Below, piece after piece: positions 4,933 to 48,622 of a stretch of DNA of 64,000 nt (positions within the stretch are counted from its first letter, which is position 1; each line of letters begins with the position of its first letter). The notes beneath the pieces are model-generated. The model saw nothing but the letters and a program-made list of their open reading frames with translations. It ran no database searches and was not told the DNA's origin. The position numbers and the translations under genes are program-made. The stretch is from Deltaproteobacteria bacterium RIFCSPHIGHO2_02_FULL_44_16 (GTDB lineage: Bacteria > UBA10199 > 2-02-FULL-44-16), in assembly GCA_001798185.1 (NCBI GenBank), contig MGRM01000009.1:85745-149744 (forward strand), written 5' to 3'.

Positions 4933-5003
4933 GTCATTCCTGCGAAAGCAGGAATCCAGCCATTTATAAGCTTTTCTGGATCCCCGCCTACGCGAGGATG
5001 ACA
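4933..5003. repeat. Hairpin-pair palindromic repeat element (family 1), copy A
   Basis: gtcattcctgcgaaagcaggaatc…ggatccccgcctacgcgaggatgaca. The left arm forms an 8 bp stem with a GAAA loop; the right arm is degenerate. Confidence 0.6.
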
Positions 5004-5028
5004 TACTAAAAAAAATAAAAATATGACT

Positions 5029-5180
5029 AGGGCGTGTCCTCATTTGGTAGAATGTCATTCCCGCGAAAGCGGGAATCTCCAGTGTTTGAAGGAGATCCCC
5101 GCTTAAAGCATGCGGGGATGACAAATCATCGAGATTCCTTTTTGTTTCAAATAGTTACGCCTCAAATGAGGACACGCCCT
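5029..5180. mobile_element. ~152 bp element bounded by perfect 18 bp terminal inverted repeats (AGGGCGTGTCCTCATTTG … CAAATGAGGACACGCCCT) enclosing a family-1 hairpin-pair repeat
   Basis: Perfect 18 bp inverted repeats at ~5029-5046 and ~5163-5180 flank copy B (5054-5123). MITE-like nested structure. Confidence 0.35.
5054..5123. repeat. Hairpin-pair palindromic repeat element (family 1), copy B
   Basis: gtcattcccgcgaaagcgggaatctcc…gatccccgcttaaagcatgcggggatgaca. Both arms form perfect 8 bp hairpins. Confidence 0.65.
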
Positions 5181-6434
5181 AAACCTTCTCCGACAAATCT
5201 CACACACGCTTTTGTTCAACTCTTTGGGCTCAACGACTATGACACGAATGGTCGTTATGAACAAACATTCGCTCGAGCCGTGCAAGAAACGGGAGAAGTT
5301 CCATCTGCACTTTATCGTGATCTGGATGTCATCGATGGTAAGGAAGGAAATGGTTTTACCGAAAATGACGTTAAAACTTTTATGCAAAAATTCGGATTAG
5401 ATGCTCTTCAAAAAAAATATTATCCTTTTTACTCATTTCAATATCGAGAGCGATGTCAATGTATCCACATAACAGCTTTTGAGAACACTTTAGAGGGAAA
5501 TGTCCCCTTCGACGATAAGCACGTAGCAAAGACACTTCGCCGAATCGGGCTAGAGCAGAACGAGCTCAAGTCTCTGAATGTCCTTATTCCGGCCGTCTCA
5601 TATCAACCAGATAAACCACAACTGATTGCTATCGAGGATGTACATGGCAACCCCAAACACGGCGCTCTCATTTATAATCTCGCTTCACGTTTTGCTGAAA
5701 AACGGCGCCAGTTAGTTATACTCTTTGAAGAAGCAAGAGGACCCATTCGTTATGATGTCCGAGAGGCTCGCAAAGATTGGGACATCATCCAATATATTAT
5801 TTTAAATACATGGTACAAGGATCCGAATAGAGTTCCAAATGGCGAGACAACTGAAGGGCGAGCTATTCGGATTGCTATTAGAGCTCGCATGCAAGCTCGT
5901 GACATAAGTCAAACGACGATTAAATCGCTCACCGTTGAACAATTAAAAGATTTTTTTATTGCACATCCCGAATTCAAGACAATGATTCTCGCAATCTCAC
6001 CTAGTCTTGTTTTGTTCTGCGACTATGGCAATCAACTGCTCATCGCAAATAGCGAATCGGAAATACCTCTCAATTTCAAAGTTCCTTCAGAGAAAGGAGA
6101 CCATCGCACACCCGACATGCCTGAAATGAATACTCTGCTCCAGGCTAAAGACGCCACCTTTCGTGACCCTGCAGTTAAACAGAACCCCGTACTTGCGAGC
6201 AAACTCGTGCTGAGGGATCCCCTACTCACCCTCGTAAAAGAGGTAGACAGAGCATCTCAGGAAAGAACTAGAAGATGGGCCACCAATGTTCTAAGTTTAG
6301 CTCAAGACGAAGCTTCCTGTGGAAAGAGCAGTGAATGCATTGTTATCCTTTTCGGAGGAGCGAGTCACTTTCCTCTCCTGAAGGACGAATTAGACGGAAA
6401 AATCTCACTTATGTTTTTGCGACCTGCGAACTAA
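5166..6434 (+). CDS. Hypothetical protein. Start uncertain: the ORF track start at 5034 lies inside the repeat elements.
   Basis: Long ORF with no recognisable catalytic motifs. Its N-terminal ~44 codons in the track are translated repeat sequence. Convergent 4 bp overlap with the hemW-like gene. Confidence 0.35.
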   Translation: MRTRPKPSPTNLTHAFVQLFGLNDYDTNGRYEQTFARAVQETGEVPSALYRDLDVIDGKEGNGFTENDVKTFMQKFGLDALQKKYYPFYSFQYRERCQCIHITAFENTLEGNVPFDDKHVAKTLRRIGLEQNELKSLNVLIPAVSYQPDKPQLIAIEDVHGNPKHGALIYNLASRFAEKRRQLVILFEEARGPIRYDVREARKDWDIIQYIILNTWYKDPNRVPNGETTEGRAIRIAIRARMQARDISQTTIKSLTVEQLKDFFIAHPEFKTMILAISPSLVLFCDYGNQLLIANSESEIPLNFKVPSEKGDHRTPDMPEMNTLLQAKDATFRDPAVKQNPVLASKLVLRDPLLTLVKEVDRASQERTRRWATNVLSLAQDEASCGKSSECIVILFGGASHFPLLKDELDGKISLMFLRPAN

Positions 6435-7753
6435 AGAAAATGTCGAAAGACTTCGTTCGAGAGTTCAATGCCTAAAAAAGTTAACGTAAAAGAATTCTCA
6501 TGTCGAAGAAGAAGTTTTTGTTGTTCAAGTTTTTTTGTCAGTCCCGGATAAACAGATTCGAGTGATACACCAAATCGTTTCTCAAACTCAGATAGTGAAA
6601 TTCCCTCTCGCGTTCGTAGTCCCAAAAAACAAAACTCAGCCATTGCAGTTTTGTGATCAATGACATCGACATCTTTTGGTTCAAAGTCTCCTTCAAGATA
6701 ACGGTGGACGTTACGAGTGGTTGTAAATCGCTCCGCGATGCGCCTGTCTGCTTGACCTTTGTGCGCGCGGTCCAGTTGGTCCGTGCTGACAAAGGTCTGC
6801 ACAGCGGCGCATGGAGATGAAAGAAACGATACAGCACCGCTTCCAAGTCCAAGATATTCTCCATAGCGCCAATAATTCAGATTGTGTCGCGATTCAAAAC
6901 TTGGACGCGCAAAATTCGAGATCTCATATCGATGCAATCCTGCTTTGTCTAAAAGTTGATGAACGAGACGAAATTGCTCAAGAGATGTTTCATCATCAAG
7001 TTTTGGTGGAAACATCTTTGTCATTCCCGCGGAAGCGGGAATCTCTTGACTGTCATGAGATCCCTGCCTTCGCAGGGATGACAAGTCTCTATATCTTTTC
7101 TCCAGCAGCGTTCCTGGTTCGAATGTCAATTGATACGCAGAAATATGATCCGGCTCAAACGAAAGCGCTCGTCTGATATCATCTTCCACTTCTTTCGTTG
7201 TTTGTCCTGGAATGGAGTAGATCAGATCGCAACTGAGATTTTGAAAACCGGCTTCTCTCGCATCGATAAGCACATGCTGAACATCATCAGCTGTGTGATC
7301 GCGATCGAGAAAGGTGAGATATTTTGGATTGAAAGATTGAATACCAATCGATAATCGATTCACTCCCGCTTTTTGCACAGACTTTAACCAATCGATGGCG
7401 CTGGTCCGCTGCGAAGTTTCGTCAGCACGGACCGACTGGACCGCGCCACCCATTGGATTCATCTCTGATGTAATTTCAATATCAGCCGAAAACGAAAATA
7501 TTTTGTGCAGTTCATTCAAAACATTTTCAAAAAATGAAGAATCCATGAGCGATGGTGTTCCACCACCAAAAAAGACTGCGTCTACTTTTCTTCCTTGAAG
7601 CGAATACAACGGAACCAAAGAGTGCAACTGCTTTATAACCGCTTGGGTATAGGCATGATGCGGAATCTCATCGCGTTTCGTCGGCAGCGAATGAAAATCA
7701 CAGTATCCGCACTTCACAATGCAATAAGGGATATGGATGTAGATGGTGAACAC
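6431..7753 (-). CDS. hemW: Radical SAM protein, HemW/HemN-like (heme chaperone / oxygen-independent coproporphyrinogen III oxidase-like)
   Basis: N-terminal 'YIHIPYCIVKCGYCDF' CxxxCxxC radical-SAM motif and HemN-like C-terminal region. Contains an in-frame family-1 repeat (translated …EIPASAGMT…). Confidence 0.7.
   Translation of the reverse strand: MFTIYIHIPYCIVKCGYCDFHSLPTKRDEIPHHAYTQAVIKQLHSLVPLYSLQGRKVDAVFFGGGTPSLMDSSFFENVLNELHKIFSFSADIEITSEMNPMGGAVQSVRADETSQRTSAIDWLKSVQKAGVNRLSIGIQSFNPKYLTFLDRDHTADDVQHVLIDAREAGFQNLSCDLIYSIPGQTTKEVEDDIRRALSFEPDHISAYQLTFEPGTLLEKRYRDLSSLRRQGSHDSQEIPASAGMTKMFPPKLDDETSLEQFRLVHQLLDKAGLHRYEISNFARPSFESRHNLNYWRYGEYLGLGSGAVSFLSSPCAAVQTFVSTDQLDRAHKGQADRRIAERFTTTRNVHRYLEGDFEPKDVDVIDHKTAMAEFCFLGLRTREGISLSEFEKRFGVSLESVYPGLTKKLEQQKLLLRHENSFTLTFLGIELSNEVFRHFL
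7020..7083. repeat. Hairpin-pair palindromic repeat element (family 1), copy C, embedded in frame inside the hemW-like coding sequence
   Basis: gtcattcccgcggaagcgggaatctcttgactgtcatgagatccctgccttcgcagggatgaca lies within the continuous 440 aa ORF. Confidence 0.6.
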
Positions 7754-10993: not shown

Positions 10994-11060
10994 TTATTGG
11001 TAAATGATCTTTAAAGAAGCGGCTTGTCATAGCGGCGAAAACCCGTTAGGAGCGGTGTTC

Positions 11061-14000
11061 ATGTCAGATAACCGACAACAACGCGTGAAAGCCTTGAAAC
11101 AGGCGCTTCAGGAACGAATTCTCGTCCTTGATGGGGCCATGGGGACAGCACTGCAAGGTTTTAATCTGACAGCCGATGATTTCGGAGGAGAAAAATATGA
11201 AGGATGTAATGAGCATCTGATTCTGACGCGGCCCGATGTCGTTAAAAAAATTCACAACAGCTATTTAGAAGCGGGGGCTGATATTATTGAAACGAACACA
11301 TTTGGCGGCACTCCTCTGGTGCTCGCTGAATACGATTTGCAAGAGAAAGCATATGAGATCAACAAACGTGGTGCTGAAATAGCTCGCGGCTGCGCTGATT
11401 CCTTTTCAACTGCTGCGCAGCCACGGTGGATTGCTGGTTCCATTGGTCCCACCACAAAAGCCATTACGGTCACTGGCGGTGTTACGTTTCAACAACTCAT
11501 TGATCATTTTTATGCGCAAGCAAAAGGTCTCTATGATGGTGGTGTCGATTATTTTCTGATCGAAACCTGTCAAGATACGCGCAACATTAAAGCAGCTATT
11601 CTTGGCATTCAAAAATTATTTCAGGAAGGGCGACAGCCCCTGCCGATTGCAGTTTCCGGAACGATTGAAAACACCGGAACTATGCTGGCTGGACAATCTG
11701 CTGAAGCACTTGTCGTTTCACTTTCACATCTCGATCTTCTCTATATCGGTATTAACTGCGCTACTGGTCCTGACTTCATGACCGATCACATCCGTTCGAT
11801 GTCAGGGCTAGCGCCCTTTTCTGTTGCTTGTGTGCCAAATGCCGGCTTGCCCGATGTCGATGGAAATTATCTTGAGACACCACAAATGATGGCAACGATT
11901 CTCGCACGCTTTTGCGAGGCGGGATGGATCAATCTCCTCGGCGGTTGCTGTGGCACCACTCCAGCGCATATTCGAACATTTGTGGACGTGGCAAAGAAAT
12001 ATCGACCGCGTGTTCCAAAAAAACAAGGGACCAGCCTTTTGGCGGGGATTGAACTTCTCGAAGTCACCGATGAAAAACGACCGATGCTTGTGGGAGAGCG
12101 AACCAATGTCATCGGCAGTCGAAAATTTAAAAAACTGATTTGCGAAGAAAAGTTCGACGAAGCGAGTGAAATTGCGCGAGCGCAAGTGAAAGCTGGAGCT
12201 CATGTCATTGATGTTTGTCTCGCAAATCCTGACCGAGATGAACTGTCAGACATGAAACAGTTCCTCGAAAAAGTGATTCATAAAATCAAAGTTCCACTCA
12301 TGATTGATTCCACGGATGAAAAAGTTGTGGAACTGGCACTCACCTATTCTCAAGGCAAAGCCATTATTAACTCTATTAATCTTGAAGATGGCGAAGAGCG
12401 CTTTGAAAAAATTATTCCACTGGTGAAAAAATATGGCGCTGCTGTTGTCGTGGGATGTATTGATGATGACCCACAACAAGGGATGGGAGTCACACGAGAG
12501 CGCAAACTTGAAATTGCAACACGATCGCATGAACTCCTTACCAAAAAACATGGTCTTCCTTCTGAAGATATTTACTGGGATCCACTTGTCTTCCCATGCG
12601 CGACTGGCGATGCACAGTACATCGGTTCTGCAGCAGAAACCATTGAAGGTGTCGGACTCATCAAACAAAAACTTCCACAAACAAAAACGGTTCTGGGTAT
12701 CTCCAATGTCTCGTTTGGTTTGCCGCCAGCTGGACGCGAAGTTCTCAATTCTGTTTTTCTTCATCATTGCGTCAAAAAGGGTCTCGACCTCGCAATTGTG
12801 AATGCAGAGCAGCTCGTGCGCTTTGCTTCTATTTCAGAAGAAGAGTTACAACTTGCGGATGACCTTCTTTACAATCGTGGTGAAGATCCAATCGCAGCTT
12901 TTGCTGCGTTCTATCGTGGAAAGAAAAAAGAAAAGCAGGTCTCTTCTCGCGAGCACATGTCGCTCGATGAACGACTCGCCGCATATATTGTTGAAGGAAC
13001 AAAAGATGGTCTCTTTCCAGATTTAGATGCAACATTAAAAGAGGAGCGCAGTCCTTTGGAAGTAATCAATGGCCCTCTCATGAAAGGGATGGATGAAGTC
13101 GGTCGTCTTTTTAATAACAATGAATTGATTGTCGCTGAAGTGTTGCAAAGCGCTGAGTCGATGAAAGCGGCGGTTGAATATTTAAAACCACACATGCCAA
13201 AAAATGAGAACACGTCTTCCCGCGGAAAAGTTATCCTCGCAACGGTGAAAGGTGATGTGCACGATATCGGAAAAAATCTCGTCGAAATTATTCTTTCGAA
13301 TAACGGATTTGAAGTGGTCAACCTTGGCATCAAAGTGCCATCAGAACAGCTGATCAAAGCGATCTCAGAGCACCGCCCTGATATCGTCGGTCTCTCAGGG
13401 CTTCTCGTGAAATCAGCGCAGCAGATGCAACTGACTGCTGATGATTTGAATCGTGCAGGCATTGATCTTCCGATTATGGTGGGAGGCGCTGCGCTTTCAG
13501 AAAATTTTACCAATAAACGCATCGCTCCTGCATACGGCGAAGGAACAGTGGTCTATGCAAAAGATGCGATGGAAGGTTTAAATCTCGCGCGTCGTATTCG
13601 AAATCCGAAAGAATTTATTTTGTTGAAAGAAAAATTAAAAACAAAGCAAACAGCATCGGTTGAAAATGAAAAAATTGAGGCGCTGAAACAAGAATCTGCG
13701 CAGCAGAGATCTTCTCTCATAGAAACAGCGTCGCTTCCAGTTCCACCTGATTTTGAACCGCATATTCTTACCAACACCCCGCTCGATCACATCTGGCCCT
13801 ACATTAACAATCTCATGCTCTATACACGTCATCTTGGTGTGAAGGGAAAATATGTAAAACTCCTGGATGCAAAAAAATTTGATGAACTCAAAAAGGACCC
13901 AGAAGAAGGACGTAAGGCCTTTGAAATATTTGAAACGCTTGAAGAGCTGAAAAAAGAATGCCGCGCTGGCCTCATGCACGTGAAAGCGACCTTTCAATTC

Positions 14001-14666
14001 TTTCGTGCAACAAGTCATGGCAATACAATAGACCTTTTTCAAAACGTTGTTTCGAAACGGGTCCTGCCGTCTGCGGTGTTCCGGCCCTCCCGCTTATCGC
14101 GGGAGACCCTCCCGGAAGCACCTCCGACGTCACCCGATTCATGGAATTTTGAAAAAGATCTATTGTCACCAGATGCAACCTTTACATTTCCACGACAACA
14201 AAAAGAAGAGGGTCTATGTCTCGCTGATTATGTGCTTCCAAAAGAACGAGATGCTATTGACACCGTCGCTCTTTTTGTTGTTACGGCCGGAAAAGGCATT
14301 CGCCATCTCGCAGAGAAATGGAAGCAAGAAGGACTTTATCTCAAATCGCATCTCATCCAAGCACTCGCGATTGAAACAGCTGAAGCCTATGCAGAAATGT
14401 TACATGCGAAACTTCGCTCTATGTGGGGTTTCCCTGATCCAATTGACATGACCATGATGCAGCGCTTTCAAGCAAAATATCGTGGCAAGCGATATTCTTT
14501 TGGATATCCGGCATGTCCGAATCTGGAAGATCAGAAAACACTTTTCGATCTTTTATCTCCAAAAAACATTGGCGTCGAACTCACCGAAGGATTCATGATG
14601 GATCCTGAGGCGAGCGTCTCCGCCATTGTTTTTCATCATCCACAGTGTACGTATTTTGGTGTTTAA
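11061..14666 (+). CDS. metH: Cobalamin-dependent methionine synthase
   Basis: Hcy-binding, pterin-binding and B12-binding ('TVKGDVHDIGKNLV', DxHxxG) domains plus an AdoMet activation domain; ~1200 aa. Confidence 0.9.
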   Translation: MSDNRQQRVKALKQALQERILVLDGAMGTALQGFNLTADDFGGEKYEGCNEHLILTRPDVVKKIHNSYLEAGADIIETNTFGGTPLVLAEYDLQEKAYEINKRGAEIARGCADSFSTAAQPRWIAGSIGPTTKAITVTGGVTFQQLIDHFYAQAKGLYDGGVDYFLIETCQDTRNIKAAILGIQKLFQEGRQPLPIAVSGTIENTGTMLAGQSAEALVVSLSHLDLLYIGINCATGPDFMTDHIRSMSGLAPFSVACVPNAGLPDVDGNYLETPQMMATILARFCEAGWINLLGGCCGTTPAHIRTFVDVAKKYRPRVPKKQGTSLLAGIELLEVTDEKRPMLVGERTNVIGSRKFKKLICEEKFDEASEIARAQVKAGAHVIDVCLANPDRDELSDMKQFLEKVIHKIKVPLMIDSTDEKVVELALTYSQGKAIINSINLEDGEERFEKIIPLVKKYGAAVVVGCIDDDPQQGMGVTRERKLEIATRSHELLTKKHGLPSEDIYWDPLVFPCATGDAQYIGSAAETIEGVGLIKQKLPQTKTVLGISNVSFGLPPAGREVLNSVFLHHCVKKGLDLAIVNAEQLVRFASISEEELQLADDLLYNRGEDPIAAFAAFYRGKKKEKQVSSREHMSLDERLAAYIVEGTKDGLFPDLDATLKEERSPLEVINGPLMKGMDEVGRLFNNNELIVAEVLQSAESMKAAVEYLKPHMPKNENTSSRGKVILATVKGDVHDIGKNLVEIILSNNGFEVVNLGIKVPSEQLIKAISEHRPDIVGLSGLLVKSAQQMQLTADDLNRAGIDLPIMVGGAALSENFTNKRIAPAYGEGTVVYAKDAMEGLNLARRIRNPKEFILLKEKLKTKQTASVENEKIEALKQESAQQRSSLIETASLPVPPDFEPHILTNTPLDHIWPYINNLMLYTRHLGVKGKYVKLLDAKKFDELKKDPEEGRKAFEIFETLEELKKECRAGLMHVKATFQFFRATSHGNTIDLFQNVVSKRVLPSAVFRPSRLSRETLPEAPPTSPDSWNFEKDLLSPDATFTFPRQQKEEGLCLADYVLPKERDAIDTVALFVVTAGKGIRHLAEKWKQEGLYLKSHLIQALAIETAEAYAEMLHAKLRSMWGFPDPIDMTMMQRFQAKYRGKRYSFGYPACPNLEDQKTLFDLLSPKNIGVELTEGFMMDPEASVSAIVFHHPQCTYFGV
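14059..14136. repeat. GC-rich palindromic segment embedded in frame in metH (linker before the activation domain)
   Basis: gggtcctgccgtctgcggtgttccggccctcccgcttatcgcgggagaccctcccgg… contains the hairpin ctcccgc-ttatc-gcgggag. The local GC content clearly exceeds that of the surrounding coding sequence. Confidence 0.35.
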
Positions 14667-18488: not shown

Positions 18489-18721
18489 AAATACAACTTC
18501 TTTTTTAAGGAGAGAAATATCGCGAAAACTTTTTTAAAAGGGCACCTCTGAGCAGACGGAGATTCAGATTATTTTTATCCCTCAGGGAATACAGACAGTA
18601 GGAATTTTTGCAGAAAGTCCGACAGGACTCCATTTTTTCCCTCCACCATCATTATGATACGGTCATCAATCGTGCATTCACTGAATTCTTGACACGGAAG
18701 ATCAGTTCGTCGAAAACGCGA

Positions 18722-21466
18722 ATGGCTATGACCATCTCTCTTCATCCCACAAATGTCGTTTATATTGAGCAGCTTCTCCAACAGTATCGGGACAATCCTT
18801 CTTCTCTTGAGCCAACATGGCGCGCTTTTTTTGATGGGATTGAATTTGCGCGCGAAAATGGAAAGGATCTCGGAGACAAACTTCTTTTTGAGTTCAATGT
18901 GTTTCAACTCATTCAGGCGTACCGAGAAATGGGATTTCTCATTGCCGATGTTAATCCACTCGACCGCACCCCAAAGTCTCATCCTCTTTTGACATTGGAA
19001 CAATATCATCTCTCTCCCTTCGATCTCGATCGTCCCTGTGACGCAGGAAAACTTTTAGGTTTAGAAGCAGCCACCCTGGGCGATATTGTGGCACATTTAC
19101 GAACCTCCTATTGCGGGCCGGCCACTGTAGAATTTAGTCATATTGGAGATCCAGAACGTCGACTCTGGATTCAACAGCGCATCGAATCACATGAGCTTCT
19201 TCAATCTACTGAAGCAACAACGAAAAAAAATATTCTTCATCTTCTGGTTCAGTCTGAAACATTTGACATGACGCTTCACAAACGTTTCGTGGGACAAAAA
19301 CGTTTTTCCGGTGAAGGAAACGACGCCATGATTCCGATGTTGGCTGATCTTATCGAACAATCAGCACAGACACATACAGATGAAATCATTTTTGGCATGG
19401 CGCATCGAGGACGGCTCTCATTTTTAACCAATGTTCTCAAAAAAGATCTCAAAACTCTTTTTGCTGAATTCTTGGGAAATCTCGAAACAAATACAACTCC
19501 AGGCGATGGCGATGTGAAATATCATTTAGGTTTTTCAGGAGAAATCACAACTTCTTCTGGGAAGGAAGTTCACCTTTCACTTGTTCCAAACCCCAGTCAC
19601 CTCGAAGCCATTAATGCTGTGGTCATGGGCATGGTCCGTGCAAAACAGCAATGCAAAGATGACAGCACACGGATGAAAACACTCGCGGTGTTGTTGCATG
19701 GAGATGCTTCCTTTGCAGGTCAAGGAAATGTCTATGAAACCCTGAACATGTCGGGCTTACGCGGCTATACGATTGGTGGCACCATTCACGTGATCATCAA
19801 TAATCAAATTGGTTTTACCACAAACCCGAAAGATGCTCGATCAACTCCGAATACGACTGATATTGCCAAAATGCTTCAGACTCCCATCTTCCGGGTCAAT
19901 GCGGACGAGCCGGAAATGGCAGTACGATGCATGCGGCTTGCACTCGAATATCGCAACCTTTTTCAGGATGATGTTTTTATCGATCTCATGGGCTACCGTC
20001 GCTATGGACACAATGAAGGAGATGAACCCTCTTTTACCCAACCTCTTCTCTCTGAAAAAATTAAACATCACCCTCGTGTGGCTGAAATCTATACCGCTCG
20101 ACTTCTCGAAGAGGGAATCATCACCCAAGAAGAGGCGCAAGCCTTTCGTGAAAAACTTCAGACTTCCTATGAAACATTGATTGAAGAAGCAAAAAAAGCA
20201 AAAATTCCTCGCACCATGAGTGCGTTTGAAAAAACATGGCACGATTTTTCTCCTGTTCCTCAAACAGAAACTTTTTTTCAAACCATCGACACCGCAGTTG
20301 CCGAAAAAATTCTTCAGAAGATGGGAGATGAACTTTCAACCTCTCCAGAAAATTTTCAACCTCATCCAAAACTGATCCGTTTTTTTGAGGATCGAAAAGA
20401 GATGATCGACGGAAAACGCGGAATTGACTGGAGTTTAGGAGAAGCTTTGGCTTTTGGCTCTCTTCTTTGTGACAATTTCTCGATACGATTGTCGGGCCAA
20501 GATGTGGAACGAGGAACATTTTCGCATCGGCACTCTGTGCTTTATGACATCACCAATAATGAACGATATATTCCTCTCAATCATCTCTCTGAAAGAAAAA
20601 AAGATTATGAAGTGGTGAATAGTTTGCTTTCAGAATTTGCTGCCATGGGTTTTGAATTTGGTCAAAGTCTTGCTGATCCTTACAAACTCACCCTTTGGGA
20701 AGCACAGTTCGGTGATTTCTTTAATGGCGCCCAAGTGATCGTCGATCAATTCTTGGTAAGTTCAGCCATTAAGTGGCAACGCTCGAGTGGACTCGTTCTC
20801 CTGCTCCCTCATGGCTACGAAGGGATGGGGCCGGAGCATTCATCGGCACGACTGGAACGATTTTTACAGGCATGTGCGCAACAGAATATTCAAGTCTGCA
20901 ATGTCAGTACACCTGCACAATACTTTCATCTGTTGCGTCGTCAAATGCTTCGATCCTTTCGTCTTCCCCTTGTCATCATGTCGCCGAAAAGCCTTCTTCG
21001 ACATCCACGTGCAACTTCATCGATGGCTGAACTTACCACCGGAACCTTTTGCGAAATACTCGACGAAACGATGCTCAAGTCATCAAAAGAGATGAAACGT
21101 CTCATTCTTTGCAGCGGTAAAATTTATTACGAACTCTTGGCAGAGCGCGAAGCACAAAAAATAATGAATGTTCCGCTCATTCGTATTGAACAATTTTATC
21201 CTTTTCATGCGAAATATTTACAAACGATTTTTCAACGATATCCAAAAATAAAAGAAATCGTCTGGTGTCAGGAAGAAGCGCAAAACATGGGAGGTTGGCA
21301 TTTCATGAAAAATCAGCTTGTGCCACTTCTTGACCAGAAGGTGAAGCTTCAGTATGTCGGTCGTCCACCGCAAGCAAGTGTTTCGGGTGGTTATCTGCAT
21401 GTTCACGAAGCAGAACAAAAACGAATCGTCACCACCGCATTCAGCGATCTTGAAGGAGCACTATGA
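18722..21466 (+). CDS. sucA: 2-oxoglutarate dehydrogenase E1 component
   Basis: ~915 aa; the N-terminal region aligns with SucA ('…VYIEQLLQQYRDNPSSLEPTWRAFF'); transketolase-like ThDP domains. Confidence 0.85.
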   Translation: MAMTISLHPTNVVYIEQLLQQYRDNPSSLEPTWRAFFDGIEFARENGKDLGDKLLFEFNVFQLIQAYREMGFLIADVNPLDRTPKSHPLLTLEQYHLSPFDLDRPCDAGKLLGLEAATLGDIVAHLRTSYCGPATVEFSHIGDPERRLWIQQRIESHELLQSTEATTKKNILHLLVQSETFDMTLHKRFVGQKRFSGEGNDAMIPMLADLIEQSAQTHTDEIIFGMAHRGRLSFLTNVLKKDLKTLFAEFLGNLETNTTPGDGDVKYHLGFSGEITTSSGKEVHLSLVPNPSHLEAINAVVMGMVRAKQQCKDDSTRMKTLAVLLHGDASFAGQGNVYETLNMSGLRGYTIGGTIHVIINNQIGFTTNPKDARSTPNTTDIAKMLQTPIFRVNADEPEMAVRCMRLALEYRNLFQDDVFIDLMGYRRYGHNEGDEPSFTQPLLSEKIKHHPRVAEIYTARLLEEGIITQEEAQAFREKLQTSYETLIEEAKKAKIPRTMSAFEKTWHDFSPVPQTETFFQTIDTAVAEKILQKMGDELSTSPENFQPHPKLIRFFEDRKEMIDGKRGIDWSLGEALAFGSLLCDNFSIRLSGQDVERGTFSHRHSVLYDITNNERYIPLNHLSERKKDYEVVNSLLSEFAAMGFEFGQSLADPYKLTLWEAQFGDFFNGAQVIVDQFLVSSAIKWQRSSGLVLLLPHGYEGMGPEHSSARLERFLQACAQQNIQVCNVSTPAQYFHLLRRQMLRSFRLPLVIMSPKSLLRHPRATSSMAELTTGTFCEILDETMLKSSKEMKRLILCSGKIYYELLAEREAQKIMNVPLIRIEQFYPFHAKYLQTIFQRYPKIKEIVWCQEEAQNMGGWHFMKNQLVPLLDQKVKLQYVGRPPQASVSGGYLHVHEAEQKRIVTTAFSDLEGAL

Positions 21467-22647
21467 TTCATCCTGTGAAAGTACCAAGTGCTGGCGAATC
21501 CGTAACAGAAGCGTTCATTGGCGAATGGAAAGTCCATAATGGTGATGTCGTCAAAAAAGGCCAGGTGATTGTCGATCTTGAAAGTCAAAAAGCAACGTTT
21601 GAACTGGAAGCTGAATCAACAGGACGCATTGAGATCAAACGTCCAACTGAAGGCGATCGCGTTACAATTGGCGAAGTCATCGCAACGATTGATGATGCCA
21701 ATGGAAAATCTGTAGGGGCGCATGGCCATGCGCCTGAGGGCGAACGCCGTTCGCCCCTACAGCAACAAACATTCATGCAAACATCCCAGAAAACTTCTTC
21801 TTCGCAAGTTGGTCCTGCTGCACGACGACGTGGAGCTGAAGTTATAGAGGTACCGGGCTCTGCGCCCGAGGGCGAACGCCGTTCGCCCCTACCTGCAACC
21901 CCATCTGTACAACCGATAAAATATACGCTCGATACAGCACGCGGTGAGCGAGCTGAAAAAGCATCACGCATTCGAAAACAGATCGCGCAAAATTTAGTTA
22001 CAGCTCAACATACTGCTGCGATTCTCACGACCTTTAATGAAGTCGACATGTCAGCAATCACTGAACTTCGAAAAAAGTATAAAGATTCCATCCTCAAAAA
22101 ACATGGTGTGAAAATCGGAATGGTTGGACCTTTTGCGATGGCCGCAAAACGAGCTCTCCTCAAATATCCTCTCGTGAATTCAACTTTTACGGGCGAAGAA
22201 ATTATCAAGCGCGATTTCATCGATCTCTCGATTGCTGTCAGCACTGAAAAAGGACTTGTGGTTCCCGTCATAAAAGACCTGCAAGGTCTCGATTGGATCG
22301 GATTTGAAAAAAAATTAACTGAACTCGCCACCAAAGCACGAGATGGAAAACTCTCCATTCCAGAGATGACCGGCGGAACGTTTACGATTACGAACGGCGG
22401 CGTGTTTGGTTCTCTCTTAGCCACTCCACTTCTCAATATGCCGCAAAGTGCGATTTTAGGCCTTCATAAAATCGAAGATCGTCCCGTTGCTCTCGAAGGA
22501 AAAGTGGTGGTACGTCCGATGATGTATATTGCTCTTTCGTATGATCACCGTCTGTTAGATGGAAAAGATGCCATTGAATTTATCGTCTCGATAAAAGAAG
22601 CAATCGAAAATCCGAGTTTGATCATTGATGAATCAATATTGAAATGA
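21463..22647 (+). CDS. sucB: Dihydrolipoyllysine-residue succinyltransferase (2-oxoglutarate dehydrogenase E2)
   Basis: N-terminal lipoyl domain ('…DLESQKATFELEAESTG…'), linker, and C-terminal catalytic domain ('…SYDHRLLDGKDA…'). Confidence 0.85.
   Translation: MIHPVKVPSAGESVTEAFIGEWKVHNGDVVKKGQVIVDLESQKATFELEAESTGRIEIKRPTEGDRVTIGEVIATIDDANGKSVGAHGHAPEGERRSPLQQQTFMQTSQKTSSSQVGPAARRRGAEVIEVPGSAPEGERRSPLPATPSVQPIKYTLDTARGERAEKASRIRKQIAQNLVTAQHTAAILTTFNEVDMSAITELRKKYKDSILKKHGVKIGMVGPFAMAAKRALLKYPLVNSTFTGEEIIKRDFIDLSIAVSTEKGLVVPVIKDLQGLDWIGFEKKLTELATKARDGKLSIPEMTGGTFTITNGGVFGSLLATPLLNMPQSAILGLHKIEDRPVALEGKVVVRPMMYIALSYDHRLLDGKDAIEFIVSIKEAIENPSLIIDESILK
21730..21760. repeat. 31 bp palindromic repeat embedded in frame in the sucB linker (copy 1)
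   Basis: gcgcctgagggcgaacgccgttcgcccctac. The core GGCGAACG/CGTTCGCC is a perfect palindrome and translates to APEGERRSP. Confidence 0.55.
21863..21893. repeat. 31 bp palindromic repeat embedded in frame in the sucB linker (copy 2)
   Basis: gcgcccgagggcgaacgccgttcgcccctac, 133 bp downstream of copy 1. It also translates to APEGERRSP. Confidence 0.55.
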
Positions 22648-22834
22648 AGAGGAGTTTGCTCGCAGGGCGACTATAAGCGAATATGAAGCGGAGTGTATAA
22701 GGAGTTTAAAATTGTATTGGTGTCACCATTTGGAGGCTGACGCGAGGAAGACATCCAAATGGAAAAGACACCAAACAATTTTGGACGACGAGTAACGTAG
22801 CGAAATGCGCGGAGCACGAGAGTAAACTCCTCTT
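22647..22834. repeat. ~188 bp structured element filling the sucB-lpdA spacer, closed by a ~17 bp imperfect terminal inverted repeat and nested internal stems
   Basis: 5' aagaggagtttgctcg … 3' cgagagtaaactcctctt. Internal ggtgtc/gacacc and ccatttgga/tccaaatgg pairings. MITE-like or a structured RNA. Confidence 0.35.
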
Positions 22835-22853
22835 CATTTAAAAGGAATGCGAA

Positions 22854-24254
22854 ATGACAGAACAAACATTTGATCTTATCGTTATTGGCGCTGGCCCTGC
22901 TGGCTATGTCGCTTCCATTCGCGCTGCGCAACTCGGAATAAATGTGGCGTGTGTTGAAAAAGAATATTTGGGTGGCACCTGTTTAAATGTTGGTTGTATT
23001 CCCAGCAAAGCACTTCTTGAGTCGAGTGAACTCTACTTCCAAGCCAAACACGGCATGAAAGACCATGGCATCAATGTCGGCGATCTCACCATCGATCTGC
23101 AAAAATTTATGGATCGCAAAAACCAGATCGTCAGCAAATTCACCTCCAACATCGGTATGCTCTTCAAAAAAAAGAAAGTAACGAGCATCAAGGGAAGAGC
23201 CAAGTTTACGAGCACCACAACACTTGAAGTGACGAGTTCTGAAGGAACGAAAACAGTTTCGGCGAAGAATATCCTCATCGCAACGGGAAGTGCCCCTGTC
23301 GCTATTCCTAACGTTCCCTTTGATGGAAAAAGAATTATCGATTCCACGGGAGCACTTGCGCTGACGGAAATTCCAAACGAATTAATTGTTATTGGTGGCG
23401 GTTACATTGGACTCGAAATGGGATCTGTTTACATGCGTCTTGGAAGCAAAGTGACCGTAATCGAAGCACTCGATCGACTTGTTCCTGCGATGGATAATGA
23501 CATCAGCAGCGGTTTACAAAAAGTTCTCACGAAACAAGGAATGGAATTTAAACTCTCCACCAAAGTACAGAAAGCGTCGGTTATCGGCAATCGTGTTGAG
23601 GTGACGACACTCGATCCGCAGGGGAATAGTACCGCCATTACCGCTGATTACGTTCTTGTCGCTGTTGGCCGTCGTCCGTATACTGACGGCCTCAACCTCA
23701 ATGCTGCAAATATCACAACAGATGAAAAGGGACGCGTCAGCGTCAACGAAAATTGGCAGACATCAACACCGAATATTTATGCGGTCGGCGATGTGATTGC
23801 AGGTCCCATGCTCGCGCACAAAGCTTCAGAAGAGGGGACTGCGTGTGTTGAGCGTATTGCAAACCATAACGCTTTTGTAAATTACGACACCATTCCGGGT
23901 GTTATTTATACCTGGCCAGAAGCAGCATCTGTCGGCATCACCGAAGAACAGGCGAAACAACAAAACATCAATTACAAAGTTTCAAAATTTCCGTTTATGG
24001 CCAATGGCCGCGCGATTTCGATGAACGAAAAGGACGGCTTTGTAAAATTGATTGCGAGCAAAGATGACGATCGCATCTTAGGCGCGCACATTTTAGGTCC
24101 GCGCGCTTCTGACATGATCGCCGAAATCGTCCTCGGTATGGAGTTTTCAACAACCGCCGCCGACATTGCTCTCACCATCCACGCCCATCCCACTCTTTCC
24201 GAAGCGGTTAAAGAAGCTGCCCTCGGCCTCGGCACCGGCATGATTCATTTGTAA
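22854..24254 (+). CDS. lpdA: Dihydrolipoyl dehydrogenase (E3)
   Basis: FAD-binding 'IGAGPAGY', redox-active 'GGTCLNVGCIPSK', dimerisation domain; 466 aa. Confidence 0.9.
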   Translation: MTEQTFDLIVIGAGPAGYVASIRAAQLGINVACVEKEYLGGTCLNVGCIPSKALLESSELYFQAKHGMKDHGINVGDLTIDLQKFMDRKNQIVSKFTSNIGMLFKKKKVTSIKGRAKFTSTTTLEVTSSEGTKTVSAKNILIATGSAPVAIPNVPFDGKRIIDSTGALALTEIPNELIVIGGGYIGLEMGSVYMRLGSKVTVIEALDRLVPAMDNDISSGLQKVLTKQGMEFKLSTKVQKASVIGNRVEVTTLDPQGNSTAITADYVLVAVGRRPYTDGLNLNAANITTDEKGRVSVNENWQTSTPNIYAVGDVIAGPMLAHKASEEGTACVERIANHNAFVNYDTIPGVIYTWPEAASVGITEEQAKQQNINYKVSKFPFMANGRAISMNEKDGFVKLIASKDDDRILGAHILGPRASDMIAEIVLGMEFSTTAADIALTIHAHPTLSEAVKEAALGLGTGMIHL

Positions 24255-37515: not shown

Positions 37516-37530
37516 TATTTGTTTGTACCG

Positions 37531-37566
37531 CTCATCCTGAGCCTGTCGAAGGATGAGCAGGATGAA
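37531..37566. repeat. Hairpin element in the feoA-feoB spacer
   Basis: gctcatcctgagcctgtcgaaggatgagcaggatga contains the perfect 8 bp stem gctcatcc/ggatgagc and is followed by a T-rich stretch. Confidence 0.35.
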
Positions 37567-37612
37567 GTTTTTCATGGTTCGACAGGCTCACCATGAGCGA
37601 ATTGTCATAAAG

Positions 37613-39823
37613 ATGAAAACTTTTCTCCTTGTTGGAAATCCTAATACCGGCAAAACCACTCTTTTCAATGCTCTCACCGGTCTTCATCAAAAAGTCGGAA
37701 ACTATGCAGGAGTCACCGTTGAAAAAAAAGAAGGAACGTTTCACGTCAACGATCAAAAAATTCGTCTCATTGATCTTCCTGGCACCTACAGTCTGACACC
37801 GAGTTCTCCTGACGAAGAGATTGTGGTCCAAACTCTATTGGGCCTTTCATCAGAGAAAATGTCCATTGATGGCGTCATTGTCGTTGCTGATGCCACGAAT
37901 CTCGAACGAAATCTTTATCTCACCACACAAGTCATTGATTGCGGTTTTCCGACAATTCTTGCGGTCAACATGATCGACGAAGCCAAGAAAAAGGGACAAT
38001 CCATTGAATTGGAGCTTCTTTCAAAGCGACTCGGAATTCCGGTTTTTTTTACGGCAGCAAATAAAAAAAGGGGTGTTGCTGAACTCAAAACGTATCTTGC
38101 CACAGAGACACTGCGTGCACCCCCTTCCATTTTGACACAACTGCAGCTCTCCTCTTCGGTTCGTTCACACTTAGAACAACTTGAACCGCATCTTGCTCAT
38201 ATCTCTCATTCCAATTCACGACGTGCGGAAGCGCTTCGTCTCCTTTCGCGAGATGACAAACTCGAAACTTATCCGCAGAAGCAAAATCTTTTGAAACTCT
38301 GTTCTACGATTCATTACATGCTCGAAACAGAACATGTTGATTGGAAATCTCTTGAAGCAGATGCGCGTTATCAGTGGATCAACCATGTCTGCAAATCTGC
38401 GTGCTCACGTCTTTTGCAGAAACCAAAGACTTCAATGACAGATCGCATTGATGCCATTGTCACCCATCGCATGGTGGGTCCGCTCTTCTTTTTTCTGATC
38501 GTCGGTATTATCTTCCAGGCTCTTTTTAGTTGGGCTACATTTCCGATGGACTTCATCGATAGTTTCTTTGGAAAAGCGAGCAATGTCATTCATCGGACGC
38601 TTCCCGAAGGACCAATTCGAAGTCTACTGGCTGATGGAGCAGTGGCGGGCATTGGCGGGATTATTATTTTTCTTCCTCAAATCGCGTTTCTTTTTTTCTT
38701 TATCGCGCTTCTTGAAGACTCTGGCTATATGGCACGCGCGGCATTTGTCATGGAACAGTTGATGGCAAAATTTGGTCTTCACGGAAAATCGTTCATCCCG
38801 CTCATCAGTTCTTTTGCATGTGCCATTCCGGGCATTATGGCCACACGAACGATTGAATCGAAACGAGATCGACTCATTACCATTCTCATCGCACCCCTCA
38901 TGAGTTGTAGCGCACGGCTTCCGGTGTATACGCTTCTCATTGCCGCATGCATTCCGTCACTCACGTTTCTTGGCATCTTCAATCTTCAAGGTATTGTCAT
39001 GTGGAGTCTCTATCTTTTAGGCGTTATCGCGGCTATTGCGGTTGCTTTTCTGCTCAAAAAAACAATTCTAAAAACTCCCTCACTCCCCTTTTTCATTGAG
39101 CTTCCTCCTTATCGTCTTCCTCAATTTTCAAATGTCTTTAAAAAAACGTGGGAGCGATCAAAACTTTTTTTGACGAATGCCGGGACGATTATCTTTGCCC
39201 TCTCGATCATCCTTTGGTTTTTGACGAGTTATCCGAAACCGAAAAATCATGTTGCAGAGAATTCATTTCAAAATGGACAAATGATTCGGGTGGCGTCGAC
39301 GTCGGATCCCAGGGGCGCCCCGCGTCAGCGGGGAGGTGGAACGACGGAGACGACAGGACCCGTATCAGAAAATAATTTTGAAATGAATTCTTCTGAGTCA
39401 AAAATCGCGTATAGTTTCGCCGGCCGCATGGGAAAAGCCATTGAACCTCTCATTGAACCGCTCGGTTTTAATTGGAAAATCGGAATCGGTTTGATCGCTT
39501 CTTTTGCAGCACGTGAAGTTTTTATCAGCACGATGGCCATTGTCTATAGTCTCGAAGATACTGACGAAACTTCTGAATCACTGATAAGTGCAATCAGAAA
39601 TGACGTTCATGCAGATGGACGAAAAGTTTTTAATCCGCTTGTGGCCTTAAGTCTTCTCGTTTTTTATGTGCTCGCTTGTCAGTGCATTTCTACTGTTGCG
39701 GTCGTCAAACGCGAAACCAACTCCTGGCGTTGGCCCATTTTTATGGTCGTCTATATGACTCTTCTCGCTTACGGGGCTTCGTTTATCGTCTATCAAGGAG
39801 GAAAATATTTTTTCCCTCTGTAA
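37613..39823 (+). CDS. feoB: Ferrous iron transport protein B
   Basis: G-domain 'LVGNPNTGKTTLFNALTG', 'DLPGTYSL', and a polytopic membrane domain. The ORF track start at 37553 lies within the upstream hairpin. Confidence 0.85.
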   Translation: MKTFLLVGNPNTGKTTLFNALTGLHQKVGNYAGVTVEKKEGTFHVNDQKIRLIDLPGTYSLTPSSPDEEIVVQTLLGLSSEKMSIDGVIVVADATNLERNLYLTTQVIDCGFPTILAVNMIDEAKKKGQSIELELLSKRLGIPVFFTAANKKRGVAELKTYLATETLRAPPSILTQLQLSSSVRSHLEQLEPHLAHISHSNSRRAEALRLLSRDDKLETYPQKQNLLKLCSTIHYMLETEHVDWKSLEADARYQWINHVCKSACSRLLQKPKTSMTDRIDAIVTHRMVGPLFFFLIVGIIFQALFSWATFPMDFIDSFFGKASNVIHRTLPEGPIRSLLADGAVAGIGGIIIFLPQIAFLFFFIALLEDSGYMARAAFVMEQLMAKFGLHGKSFIPLISSFACAIPGIMATRTIESKRDRLITILIAPLMSCSARLPVYTLLIAACIPSLTFLGIFNLQGIVMWSLYLLGVIAAIAVAFLLKKTILKTPSLPFFIELPPYRLPQFSNVFKKTWERSKLFLTNAGTIIFALSIILWFLTSYPKPKNHVAENSFQNGQMIRVASTSDPRGAPRQRGGGTTETTGPVSENNFEMNSSESKIAYSFAGRMGKAIEPLIEPLGFNWKIGIGLIASFAAREVFISTMAIVYSLEDTDETSESLISAIRNDVHADGRKVFNPLVALSLLVFYVLACQCISTVAVVKRETNSWRWPIFMVVYMTLLAYGASFIVYQGGKYFFPL
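39287..39365. repeat. GC-rich palindromic segment embedded in frame in feoB
   Basis: …gtcgacgtcggatcccaggggcgccccgcgtcagcggggaggtggaacgacggagacgac… contains the hairpin ccccgc-gtca-gcgggg. Encodes the hydrophilic stretch STSDPRGAPRQRGGGTTETTGP between membrane segments. Confidence 0.3.
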
Positions 39824-39827
39824 AGCA

Positions 39828-39974: not shown

Positions 39975-39987
39975 TGTGGTTCATAAT

Positions 39988-48600: not shown

Positions 48601-48622
48601 GAAAGCTCCGCTAAAAACTATG

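What the first reader, a model, noticed from the sequence alone, without database searches (positions are those of the whole stretch)
22647..22834. The sucB-lpdA spacer is filled by a ~188 bp element with long-range terminal complementarity and nested stems
Positions ~22647-22663 (aagaggagtttgctcg) pair with ~22817-22834 (cgagagtaaactcctctt). Inside are perfectly complementary ggtgtc/gacacc and ccatttgga/tccaaatgg segments. No ORF is credible here; the minus-strand 86 aa ORF 22671-22931 is an artefact. It is either a third MITE type or a structured RNA between two genes of the same complex, and could attenuate or stabilise the sucAB-lpd transcript.
Basis: seen in the sequence. Interest (0 to 1): 0.5.

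Follow-up and report, generated by a model that had tools for sequence, protein, structure and literature searches.

The report
Orphan palindromic insertion between sucB and lpdA
The 206-base gap between two genes of the 2-oxoglutarate dehydrogenase operon holds a real, very stable hairpin about 200 bases long. It was inserted in this species only and most likely comes from selfish palindromic DNA, not from a conserved regulatory RNA, so it is fairly ordinary.

Summary
Arms 22639-22661 and 22820-22842 are 91% complementary, and they enclose an 85-nt inner hairpin. The + strand RNA folds at -82.5 kcal/mol (z -9.3).

It is a lineage-specific insertion. A 7-nt direct repeat, GAAATGA, holds the sucB stop and, 210 nt later, the lpdA start. 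This fits insertion into an ancestral ATGA overlap.

I found no second copy in 72 kb of this genome, in relatives' loci, in viral contigs, metagenome contigs or plasmids, or in two protein-space searches. Rfam, Pfam and the promoter and terminator scans gave nothing.

The host is a groundwater Deltaproteobacteria MAG crowded with other palindromic repeat families.

Best reading (about 0.55): an orphan MITE-like palindromic insertion that is co-transcribed with sucAB-lpdA. It leaves the lpdA ribosome-binding site free. It probably breaks translational coupling and offers double-stranded RNA for RNase III. It looks tolerated, not selected.

MITE membership is unproven because no other copies were found. 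Interest is low to moderate.

The parts
21463..22647 (+). sucB (E2o, dihydrolipoyl succinyltransferase). Its stop TGA at 22645-22647 lies inside the left arm of the hairpin.
   Evidence: ORF list. Pfam Biotin_lipoyl plus 2-oxoacid_dh. The C-terminus has the same length as in the nearest relatives. sucA/sucB overlap by ATGA.
22641..22647 (+). Left copy of the direct repeat GAAATGA. It contains the sucB stop codon.
   Evidence: Read from the sequence. The second copy is 210 nt (70 codons) downstream. Among 32 long ATG-initiated ORFs in the window, only lpdA has this start context.
22639..22661 (+). Left arm of the outer inverted repeat (TTGAAATGAAGAGGAGTTTGCTC). Its outer 9 nt are sucB codons Leu-Lys-stop.
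   Evidence: the repeat finder pair I1. It forms a 20-bp stem in the minimum-energy fold.
22662..22703 (+). Left side of the large internal loop. It carries a partial second copy of the arm motif (22681-22697, ATATGAAGCGGAGTGTA) and AGGAGTTTA (22700-22708). Either can pair with the right arm instead of the left arm.
   Evidence: Repeats D1, I2 and I4, and the constrained fold.
22704..22788 (+). Inner hairpin: three perfect helices of 8, 8 and 9 bp separated by small bulges, with a 19-nt apical loop at 22735-22753.
   Evidence: It forms on its own as soon as it is transcribed (prefix folds).
22789..22819 (+). Right side of the internal loop, weakly paired.
   Evidence: and the self-alignment.
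22820..22842 (+). Right arm of the outer inverted repeat (GAGTAAACTCCTCTTCATTTAAA).
22842..22853 (+). lpdA leader with the Shine-Dalgarno-like AAGGAA (22842-22847), 6 nt before the ATG. It sits immediately 3' of the hairpin base and is predicted to be mostly unpaired.
   Evidence: Sequence. Mean pairing probability over 22842-22848 is 0.22 in the free RNA and 0.15 with a ribosome placed on the sucB stop.
22851..22857 (+). Right copy of GAAATGA. It contains the lpdA start ATG (22854-22856), and its TGA is in the sucB reading frame.
   Evidence: Sequence. The frame arithmetic is 22855 minus 22645 = 210.
22854..24254 (+). lpdA (E3, dihydrolipoyl dehydrogenase).
   Evidence: ORF list, source names of the homologues, and Pfam families listed for the called gene.

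Best explanation
The element is about 200 bp of non-coding, imperfectly palindromic DNA. In this species only, it was inserted exactly at the sucB-stop/lpdA-start junction. That junction was probably an ATGA overlap, like the sucA/sucB junction of the same operon and like the GTGA overlaps of two relatives. The insertion left a 7-nt direct repeat, GAAATGA: the left copy keeps the sucB stop and the right copy keeps the lpdA start. I read it as an orphan MITE-like palindromic element, one of several kinds of selfish palindromic repeat in this repeat-laden genome. It is not a conserved regulatory RNA. How it behaves is inferred, not shown. It has no promoter or terminator of its own, so it should be transcribed as part of sucA-sucB-lpdA. 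In the RNA it folds into a long hairpin: a 20-bp closing stem, a large internal loop and an inner stem of about 30 bp. The base of the hairpin sits between the stop codon and the lpdA ribosome-binding site and leaves that site single-stranded. The likely consequences are these. The 4-nt overlap coupling is lost, so lpdA is translated by independent initiation. Ribosomes finishing sucB must melt the closing stem. The two long helices are plausible RNase III substrates, which would split the transcript into a sucAB part with a 3' hairpin and an lpdA part with a 5' hairpin. I think the insertion is tolerated rather than selected.
For: Insertion, shown: the closest relatives have no spacer. L005 (SucB 79% identical) and L012 both have a GTGA overlap. 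Others have spacers of 23, 28 and 45 nt. The window's SucB C-terminus and LpdA N-terminus (MTE against VTE) line up with theirs. The sucA/sucB junction in the window is an ATGA overlap. The GAAATGA repeat is 210 nt apart and in frame, with a chance probability of about 0.02. Palindrome. Non-coding: no Pfam match above cut-off and no homologues of any frame. No Rfam family matched, and there is no promoter or terminator consensus on the + strand. Context: the same 64 kb holds a 151-156-bp MITE family in 4 copies sitting at gene junctions, paired 27-nt hairpin repeats, and palindromic elements read through inside metH and feoB. The sucB-lpdA junction of another lineage (L095 230 nt, L098 206 nt) was invaded independently by unrelated hairpin repeats, which are already decaying in L098. 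The junction is therefore a permissive landing site. The lpdA Shine-Dalgarno site stays open. Literature: MITEs can occur at one copy per genome, and RNase III cleaves Correia-containing transcripts at the terminal inverted repeats (PMC10969869, read; PMC2649163 abstract).
Against: No second copy was found, and multiple copies are the defining evidence of a mobile family. The GAAATGA repeat does not abut the right arm: 8 nt lie between them, and the left copy lies inside the left arm. The geometry is therefore not that of a textbook terminal-inverted-repeat plus target-site-duplication element. The left arm includes sucB codons that look host-derived. No related insertion sequence or transposase is known. 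The + strand folds 21 kcal/mol better than the - strand (71 pairs including 5 G-U, against 60 including 2), which could hint at selection on the RNA. The other repeats in the window show strand differences too, so this is weak. All copies available are identical, so neither decay nor covariation can be measured.
Confidence: 0.55

Rival explanations
1. The hairpin was born locally. The spacer grew in place by replication template switching and inverted or direct duplication around the stop/start junction. No transposition was involved, so no other copies ever existed.
For: The element is a singleton in every search. The left arm contains the host's Leu-Lys-stop codons, and the right arm is their inverted copy. 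The arm motif recurs in direct orientation (22641-22658 against 22680-22697, 13 of 18; GCGAAATG at 22800 and 22849). Template switching is documented to create, homogenise and extend inverted-repeat arms and RNA hairpins (PMC8794818, PMC13100816, PMC7202029; abstracts).
Against: About 150 nt, namely the inner hairpin and both loop sides, have no detectable source in the neighbouring genes or anywhere else in the 64 kb. Template switches usually copy tens of bases, not 200. The genome plainly hosts mobile palindromic families that land at gene junctions.
Confidence: 0.2
2. It is a selected cis-acting RNA element of the sucAB-lpdA mRNA. Whatever its origin, the hairpin is kept because it sets the ratio of E1/E2 to E3. 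It could do this through RNase III processing and segmental stability, or by holding the sucB stop and the lpdA ribosome-binding site close together.
For: The + strand (mRNA sense) fold is much more stable than the antisense fold, with 5 G-U pairs against 2. The hairpin base sits exactly between the stop codon and the Shine-Dalgarno site, which stays unpaired. When a ribosome covers the left arm, the right arm can re-pair with an internal second copy at 22683-22698. The element is identical in all sampled populations.
Against: It is absent from all related junctions, which work with overlaps or short spacers. Another lineage carries different repeats at the same site, and in L098 they are decaying (z -1.9). 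There is no Rfam family. No sequence variation is available, so pair conservation is untestable. Strand asymmetry of similar size occurs in the window's D2 MITE copies.
Confidence: 0.18
3. It is a separate gene. It could be a 6S-like or other small RNA (closing stem, bubble, terminal stem, about 198 nt), or a minus-strand small hydrophobic peptide or type I toxin (43 aa, MKRSLLSCSAHFATLLVV…).
For: The overall shape recalls 6S RNA. A 43-aa ORF with a signal-peptide-like start exists on the minus strand, and a 27-aa + strand ORF follows AGGAG plus 7 nt.
Against: No 6S family or any other Rfam family matched, even at E up to 10 on a 501-nt slice. No Pfam family passed its cut-off. No homologue was found in 5.8 billion or 1.84 billion protein sets apart from the ORF's own call. 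There is no promoter or terminator consensus for a separate + strand transcript. The 43-aa ORF has no Shine-Dalgarno site (sequence). The element is absent in relatives.
Confidence: 0.05
4. It is an assembly artefact, such as a chimeric or fold-back join.
For: None beyond the general tendency of palindromes to confuse assemblers.
Against: The 241 nt across the spacer are identical in four contigs from four different samples, drawn from ENA, Logan and JGI. Ten contigs in total carry the same sucB. The 48-aa ORF inside the element was called on 4 contigs, all in the same context.
Confidence: 0.02

Closest known systems
Correia repeat-enclosed elements (CREE/NEMIS) of Neisseria
   Same: They are 100-160-bp non-coding elements with terminal inverted repeats of about 26 nt. 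They are often inserted between co-transcribed genes. In mRNA they fold into a long hairpin that RNase III can cleave or that alters transcript stability (PMC2649163 abstract; PMC10969869). This is the best functional analogy for what the element here would do to the sucAB-lpdA transcript.
   Different: There is no sequence similarity. Correia elements occur in hundreds of copies and are described with a TA target duplication, an IHF site and outward promoters (partly from my own knowledge). Here there is one copy, no TA duplication, no promoter consensus, and a different phylum.
ERIC/IRU and REP/BIME elements of enterobacteria inside operons
   Same: They are intercistronic imperfect palindromes that are co-transcribed and change the stability of the upstream or downstream segment. 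ERIC at the 3' ends of Yersinia genes affects transcript levels through RNase E (PMC10969869). REP elements as 3' stabilisers, and stalling when a stop codon lies close to a REP, come from my own knowledge and were not checked here.
   Different: REPs are GC-rich palindromes of about 35 nt with a conserved head. ERIC is a conserved 127-bp family. Both are multi-copy. The element here is longer, AT-rich (about 41% GC), a singleton and unrelated in sequence.
The window's own MITE families: D2 (151-156 bp) and the paired 27-nt hairpin repeats
   Same: They share the same genome and the same habit of filling gene junctions. One D2 copy (56031-56181) fills the gap between ORFs 54559-56022 and 56195-57637. 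The 27-nt hairpin type fills the sucB-lpdA spacer of lineage L095/L098.
   Different: There is no significant sequence similarity to the element studied. One weak gapped resemblance links the apical region to a 27-nt-repeat pair at 4930-5008: score 42 against a shuffle maximum of 38, with lenient gap penalties and five comparisons. I treat this as a lead only.
Template-switch-generated hairpins (quasipalindrome correction and extension)
   Same: This replication mechanism makes and lengthens perfect inverted-repeat arms, including arms that run into neighbouring functional sequence (PMC8794818, PMC13100816). It would explain why the left arm includes sucB codons.
   Different: Documented events are short. 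They do not by themselves supply 200 nt of new sequence.

Membership tests
MITE (miniature inverted-repeat transposable element) | Small (about 50-500 bp), with no coding capacity | tested here: met
   The element is about 198-210 bp. Only short ORFs are present, and they have no homologues or domains.
MITE (miniature inverted-repeat transposable element) | Terminal inverted repeats | tested here: met
   The arms are 23 nt at 91% (22 of 26 when extended). The outer 9 nt of the left arm are sucB codons, so the true terminus is uncertain.
MITE (miniature inverted-repeat transposable element) | Target-site duplication directly flanking the terminal inverted repeats | tested here: inconclusive
   GAAATGA occurs at 22641-22647 and at 22851-22857, with about 2% probability by chance. 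The left copy lies inside the left arm, and the right copy is 8 nt beyond the right arm.
MITE (miniature inverted-repeat transposable element) | Several copies at different loci (evidence of mobility) | tested here: not met
   No second copy was found in the window, in 8.3 kb beyond it, in relatives' loci, in viral contigs, in metagenome contigs, in plasmids or in protein space. Only about 72 kb of the source genome could be searched. The metagenome collection did not return the source locus itself, so this negative result is weak.
MITE (miniature inverted-repeat transposable element) | A related autonomous insertion sequence with the same terminal inverted repeats | not tested
   No transposase with matching ends lies in the window. 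No database of IS ends was available.
MITE (miniature inverted-repeat transposable element) | Presence/absence polymorphism at orthologous sites | tested here: met
   The site is empty (overlap or 23-45-nt spacer) in L005, L012, L013, L015/16 and L006.
Correia element (CREE) | Conserved 26-bp Correia terminal repeat, TA duplication, Neisseria host | tested here: not met
   The arm sequence here is AAATGAAGAGGAGTTTGCTC. The flanks are not TA. The host is a Deltaproteobacteria MAG. The Correia consensus itself is recalled from memory.
REP/BIME | GC-rich imperfect palindrome of about 35-40 nt, multi-copy | tested here: not met
   The element is about 200 nt, about 41% GC and single-copy.
6S RNA (Rfam RF00013 and related models) | A match to the 6S covariance models | tested here: not met
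   There was no hit at gathering score. No 6S hit appeared at E up to 10 on 22500-23000.
Intrinsic terminator / attenuator | GC-rich stem followed by a U tract, or sequestration of the downstream ribosome-binding site | tested here: not met
   There is no terminator-like site in the spacer. The lpdA Shine-Dalgarno site has a pairing probability of 0.15-0.22.
Conserved cis-regulatory RNA of the sucAB-lpd operon | Presence and covarying pairs in related genomes | tested here: not met
   It is absent in all relatives fetched. The long spacers in L095 and L098 are not homologous to it. The only copies available are 100% identical.
Type I toxin-antitoxin / small protein gene | A conserved small hydrophobic ORF with a ribosome-binding site, its own promoter and an antisense RNA | tested here: not met
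   The 43-aa ORF has no Shine-Dalgarno site, no family and no homologues. There is no promoter consensus upstream of this ORF.

The most novel reading that the evidence does not exclude
The hairpin has been co-opted. It loops out 200 nt so that the sucB stop codon and the lpdA ribosome-binding site sit side by side at the base of a 20-bp stem. It may restore a structural form of translational coupling after the ATGA overlap was destroyed. Alternatively, RNase III may cut it out as a stable, 6S-shaped RNA of about 200 nt. The internal second copy of the arm (22683-22698) could act as a ribosome-dependent alternative pairing partner. A related unconventional possibility is that this element, and the window's other copy-specific stems, arise by template switching rather than by a transposase.
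Probability: 0.1. Interest if true: 0.5.

Novelty: new member of a known kind. Interest (0 to 1): 0.25.

Why it matters
If the main reading is right, this is one more case of selfish palindromic DNA settling in an operon junction. It is useful mainly in three ways. It warns annotators about the spurious 48/86-aa ORF. It marks a lineage-specific change at the sucB/lpdA junction. It shows, as a natural experiment, that a tightly coupled stop/start overlap in a central-metabolism operon tolerates a 200-nt hairpin. The wider context is arguably more interesting. This groundwater Deltaproteobacteria lineage carries many distinct palindromic element families, some read through inside essential genes. 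The same junction was also invaded independently in sister lineages.

Tried and rejected
(1) Rfam at gathering score on the whole window and at E up to 10 on 22500-23000 gave only chance miRNA-like hairpin hits.

(2) I looked for a second copy in several ways:
- arm and inner-stem patterns with up to 3 mismatches in the window;
- blastn and nhmmer against the window, 8.3 kb beyond its right end, and all relatives' loci;
- the one 3-mismatch arm hit at 53018, which proved to be chance.

(3) Public collections:
- a 16-mer arm pattern in viral contigs gave 66 single, chance-level hits;
- a 20-mer arm pattern in metagenome contigs gave 8 chance hits, and the source locus itself was not returned, so that collection says nothing about same-genome copies;
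- distant blastn against plasmids gave nothing.

(4) Protein-space searches:
- a six-frame pseudo-protein against 5.8 billion proteins gave nothing;
- the longest frame against 1.84 billion representatives returned only its own 48-aa gene call plus one spurious repetitive protein;
- that 48-aa ORF occurs on 4 contigs, all in the sucB-lpdA context.

(5) Covariation was impossible. All available copies are identical, and no relative between 80% and 100% protein identity was retrievable. P0123 (98% identical LpdA) has no contig on record.

(6) Homology to the long sucB-lpdA spacers of L095 and L098 was not found.

(7) Homology to the window's other hairpin elements was not found, except for the weak lead to a 27-nt-repeat pair.

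(8) Promoter, terminator and attenuator readings were rejected.

(9) Walking to the left of the window failed because the first ORF's product is not on record.
Full report
WHAT IS THERE

The window carries sucA (18608-21466), sucB (21463-22647) and lpdA (22854-24254), all on the + strand. sucA and sucB overlap by ATGA. sucB and lpdA are separated by 206 nt.

The outer inverted repeat is longer than stated: 22639-22661 against 22820-22842, 23 nt at 91%, or 22 of 26 when extended. It includes the last two sense codons and the stop codon of sucB.

Inside lies an 85-nt hairpin (22704-22788) made of three perfect helices of 8, 8 and 9 bp. Between the outer stem and the inner hairpin are two poorly complementary stretches, 22662-22703 and 22789-22819.

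The + strand RNA folds at -82.5 kcal/mol, against -45.1 +/- 4.0 for shuffles (z -9.25). The - strand folds at -61.3 (z -6.4). The + fold has 71 pairs including 5 G-U. The - fold has 60 pairs including 2 G-U.

The sequence is identical in four contigs from four different samples, drawn from ENA, Logan and JGI, so it is not an assembly artefact.

WHO CARRIES IT

The source is a Rifle groundwater MAG, named 'Deltaproteobacteria bacterium RIFCSPHIGHO2_02_FULL_44_16' and '…LOWO2_02_FULL_44_10'. Close relatives are scarce. The next SucB sequences are a partial one at 79% identity (L005) and full-length ones at 64-65%.

IT IS AN INSERTION

The sucB-lpdA junctions of the relatives are as follows.

| Locus | Junction |
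|---|---|
| L005 | stop and start overlap, gcGTGActgaa |
| L012 | stop and start overlap, gcGTGAcgagc |
| L013 | 28-nt spacer |
| L015 / L016 | 23-nt spacer |
| L006 | 45-nt spacer |

The window's SucB C-terminus (…IDESILK) has the same length as those of its nearest relatives. LpdA starts MTE…, against VTE… in L005. The stop and start positions are therefore ancestral, and about 200 nt have been added between them.

GAAATGA occurs at 22641-22647, where it contains the sucB TGA. It occurs again at 22851-22857, where it contains the lpdA ATG and a TGA in the sucB frame. The two copies are exactly 210 nt apart. The simplest history is an ancestral …TTGAAATGACAGAA… junction with an ATGA overlap, as at sucA/sucB, into which about 203 nt were inserted with a 7-nt duplication. 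Among 32 long ATG-initiated ORFs in the window, only lpdA has GAA before the ATG, and 66% have A after it. The match therefore has a chance probability of about 2%. That is suggestive but not proof.

The geometry is not that of a textbook element with terminal inverted repeats flanked by a target-site duplication. The left repeat copy lies within the left arm, and the right copy lies 8 nt beyond the right arm.

IS IT ONE OF A FAMILY?

I could not find a second copy. The searches were:
- the window;
- 8.3 kb beyond its right end;
- about 84 kb of relatives' loci;
- viral contigs, where the 66 hits to a 16-mer were all chance;
- metagenome contigs, where the 8 hits to a 20-mer were all chance;
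- plasmids;
- a six-frame pseudo-protein against 5.8 billion proteins;
- the longest frame against 1.84 billion representatives, which found only its own 48-aa gene call; that ORF occurs on 4 contigs, all in the sucB-lpdA context.

Two caveats apply. Only about 72 kb of the source genome was accessible. The metagenome collection did not return the source locus itself, so it does not test for same-genome copies.

WHAT IT IS NOT

- It matches no Rfam family, 6S included.
- There is no sigma-70-like promoter on the + strand and no terminator-like site in the spacer.
- None of its small ORFs has a Pfam family above cut-off.
- It is not homologous to the other hairpin elements of the window.
- It is not homologous to the long spacers of L095 and L098.
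- One weak gapped resemblance links its apical region to a 27-nt-repeat pair at 4930-5008. I treat it as a lead only.

CONTEXT THAT SHAPES THE INTERPRETATION

The same 64 kb is crowded with palindromic repeats:
- a 151-156-bp MITE family in four copies, several of them exactly filling gene junctions;
- paired 27-nt hairpins of the type TGTCATYCCYGCGAARGCRGGRATC;
- a 118-bp GC-rich palindromic core read through in frame inside metH and feoB;
- a GC-rich double palindrome present twice in the sucB linker.

In a sister lineage the sucB-lpdA junction was filled independently by the 27-nt hairpin type. L095 has 230 nt there (z -9.8). L098 has 206 nt, already decayed (z -1.9). A third lineage has a 267-nt spacer with a called 79-aa ORF, but no DNA was available.

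This junction therefore repeatedly accepts palindromic DNA, and at least one such occupant is decaying without apparent constraint.

HOW IT MOST LIKELY WORKS (INFERENCE)

The element has no promoter or terminator, so it should be transcribed within sucA-sucB-lpdA.

Prefix folds suggest that the inner hairpin forms first. The closing stem forms once the right arm is made.

The closing stem starts 3 nt before the sucB stop codon and ends 14 nt before the lpdA ATG. The AAGGAA Shine-Dalgarno site (22842-22847) stays mostly unpaired, whether or not a ribosome covers the left arm (pairing probability 0.22 and 0.15). With the left arm covered, the right arm re-pairs with an internal partial copy at 22683-22698.

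Expected effects:
- the 4-nt overlap coupling is lost, and lpdA is translated by independent initiation;
- terminating ribosomes have to melt a 20-bp stem;
- the two helices of 20 bp or more are plausible RNase III substrates, which would separate a sucAB segment ending in a hairpin from an lpdA segment beginning with one.

RNase III cleavage of Correia-containing transcripts at their terminal inverted repeats is the closest documented precedent (PMC10969869; PMC2649163). None of these effects is shown here.

RIVALS

(a) Local birth by template switching or duplication. It is supported by the singleton status, by the host codons inside the left arm, and by direct repeats of the arm motif. The mechanism is documented (PMC8794818, PMC13100816). 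Against it, about 150 nt have no local source.

(b) A selected cis-acting RNA. It is supported by the strand asymmetry and the tidy placement of the hairpin. Against it are the element's absence in relatives and the decaying, unrelated occupants of the same site elsewhere.

(c) A separate sRNA or peptide gene. Nothing supports it beyond the overall shape.

(d) An assembly artefact. This is excluded.

VERDICT

The feature is real and statistically striking. Its most probable nature is ordinary: an orphan MITE-like palindromic insertion, a new member of a known kind. Membership in the MITE class is unproven because the multi-copy criterion was not met in the limited sequence available. Interest is 0.25.

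The most novel reading that remains open is co-option, either as a structural bridge for coupling or as a processed RNA, or a transposase-independent origin. I give this a probability of about 0.1.

Noticed in passing
window 14025-14166 (inside ORF 11004-14666, metH) and window 39258-39391 (inside ORF 37553-39823, feoB): Two homologous palindromic elements (about 75% identical, opposite orientation, GC-rich core of about 118 bp between TTTCAAAA and TTTTGAAA) are read through in frame inside two conserved genes, much like Rickettsia palindromic elements. The MetH activation domain spans 294 aa for 256 Pfam profile positions. The outer arms differ between the copies (ACAATAGACCTT/AAGATCTATTGT against AGAATTCA/TGAATTCT), yet each pair is almost perfectly complementary. 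This could reflect compensatory change, template-switch homogenisation or inverted flank duplication. It is possibly more interesting than the finding itself.
   Followed up: partly
window 39826-39976, 48617-48767 (-), 54071-54221, 56031-56181: A clear MITE family of 151-156 bp has four copies in 64 kb (76-95% identity), with terminal inverted repeats of about 28-35 nt starting (G)ACCAAACTG. Several copies exactly fill the gap between the stop of one gene and the start of the next.
   Followed up: partly
window 4932-5010, 5053-5125, 7019-7090, 42235-42300, 62940-63015; also L095 2785-2970 and L098 ~990-1025: These are paired 27-nt hairpin repeats of the type TGTCATYCCYGCGAARGCRGGRATC, with a mirror partner ending …GGGATGACA. 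The same type fills the sucB-lpdA spacer of another Deltaproteobacteria lineage (L095, 230 nt). A decayed remnant sits in L098 (206 nt). This is an independent invasion of the same junction.
   Followed up: partly
window 21713-21760 and 21845-21892 (inside sucB): A GC-rich double palindrome (GGCGCATGGCCATGCGCC … GGGCGAACGCCGTTCGCCCC) occurs twice in the sucB linker, encoding APEGERRSPL each time. In this clade (window, P0002, P0003, P0055) the E3-binding (PSBD) domain is reduced to about 'GPAARR' and is not detected by Pfam. More distant relatives keep it. This raises the question of how E3 (LpdA) docks onto E2o here.
   Followed up: partly
window 5028-5046 / 5163-5181: A perfect 19-nt inverted repeat (TAGGGCGTGTCCTCATTTG) encloses one of the 27-nt hairpin pairs. 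It is a nested palindromic element at the start of ORF 5034-6434.
   Followed up: no
JGI sample 3300050046, 3303-bp contig (no DNA available): In the lineage with LpdA 68% identical (P0124), the sucB-lpdA spacer is 267 nt and contains a called 79-aa ORF with no Pfam family. This is another long occupant of the same junction, and I could not inspect it.
   Followed up: no
window 43976-44938 (inside the 1476-aa minus-strand ORF 42260-46690): There are three tandem repeats of about 330 nt (62-79% identity) within a very large ORF, presumably a repetitive surface or adhesin-like protein.
   Followed up: no
window 37529-37599: A 28-nt inverted repeat (CGCTCATCCTGAGCCTGTCGAAGGATGA / TCATGGTTCGACAGGCTCACCATGAGCG, 86%) overlaps the mechanically listed start of feoB (37553). 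The real start is probably further downstream.
   Followed up: no
L092 vs L093 (about 16.1-18.3 kb in those loci; window ~53.5-56 kb region): Two assemblies of the same organism differ by a 22-nt indel and 2 substitutions over 20.8 kb. The gatA (amidase) gene is called as one gene in L092 and as two in L093. This is strain-level variation or a frameshift.
   Followed up: no
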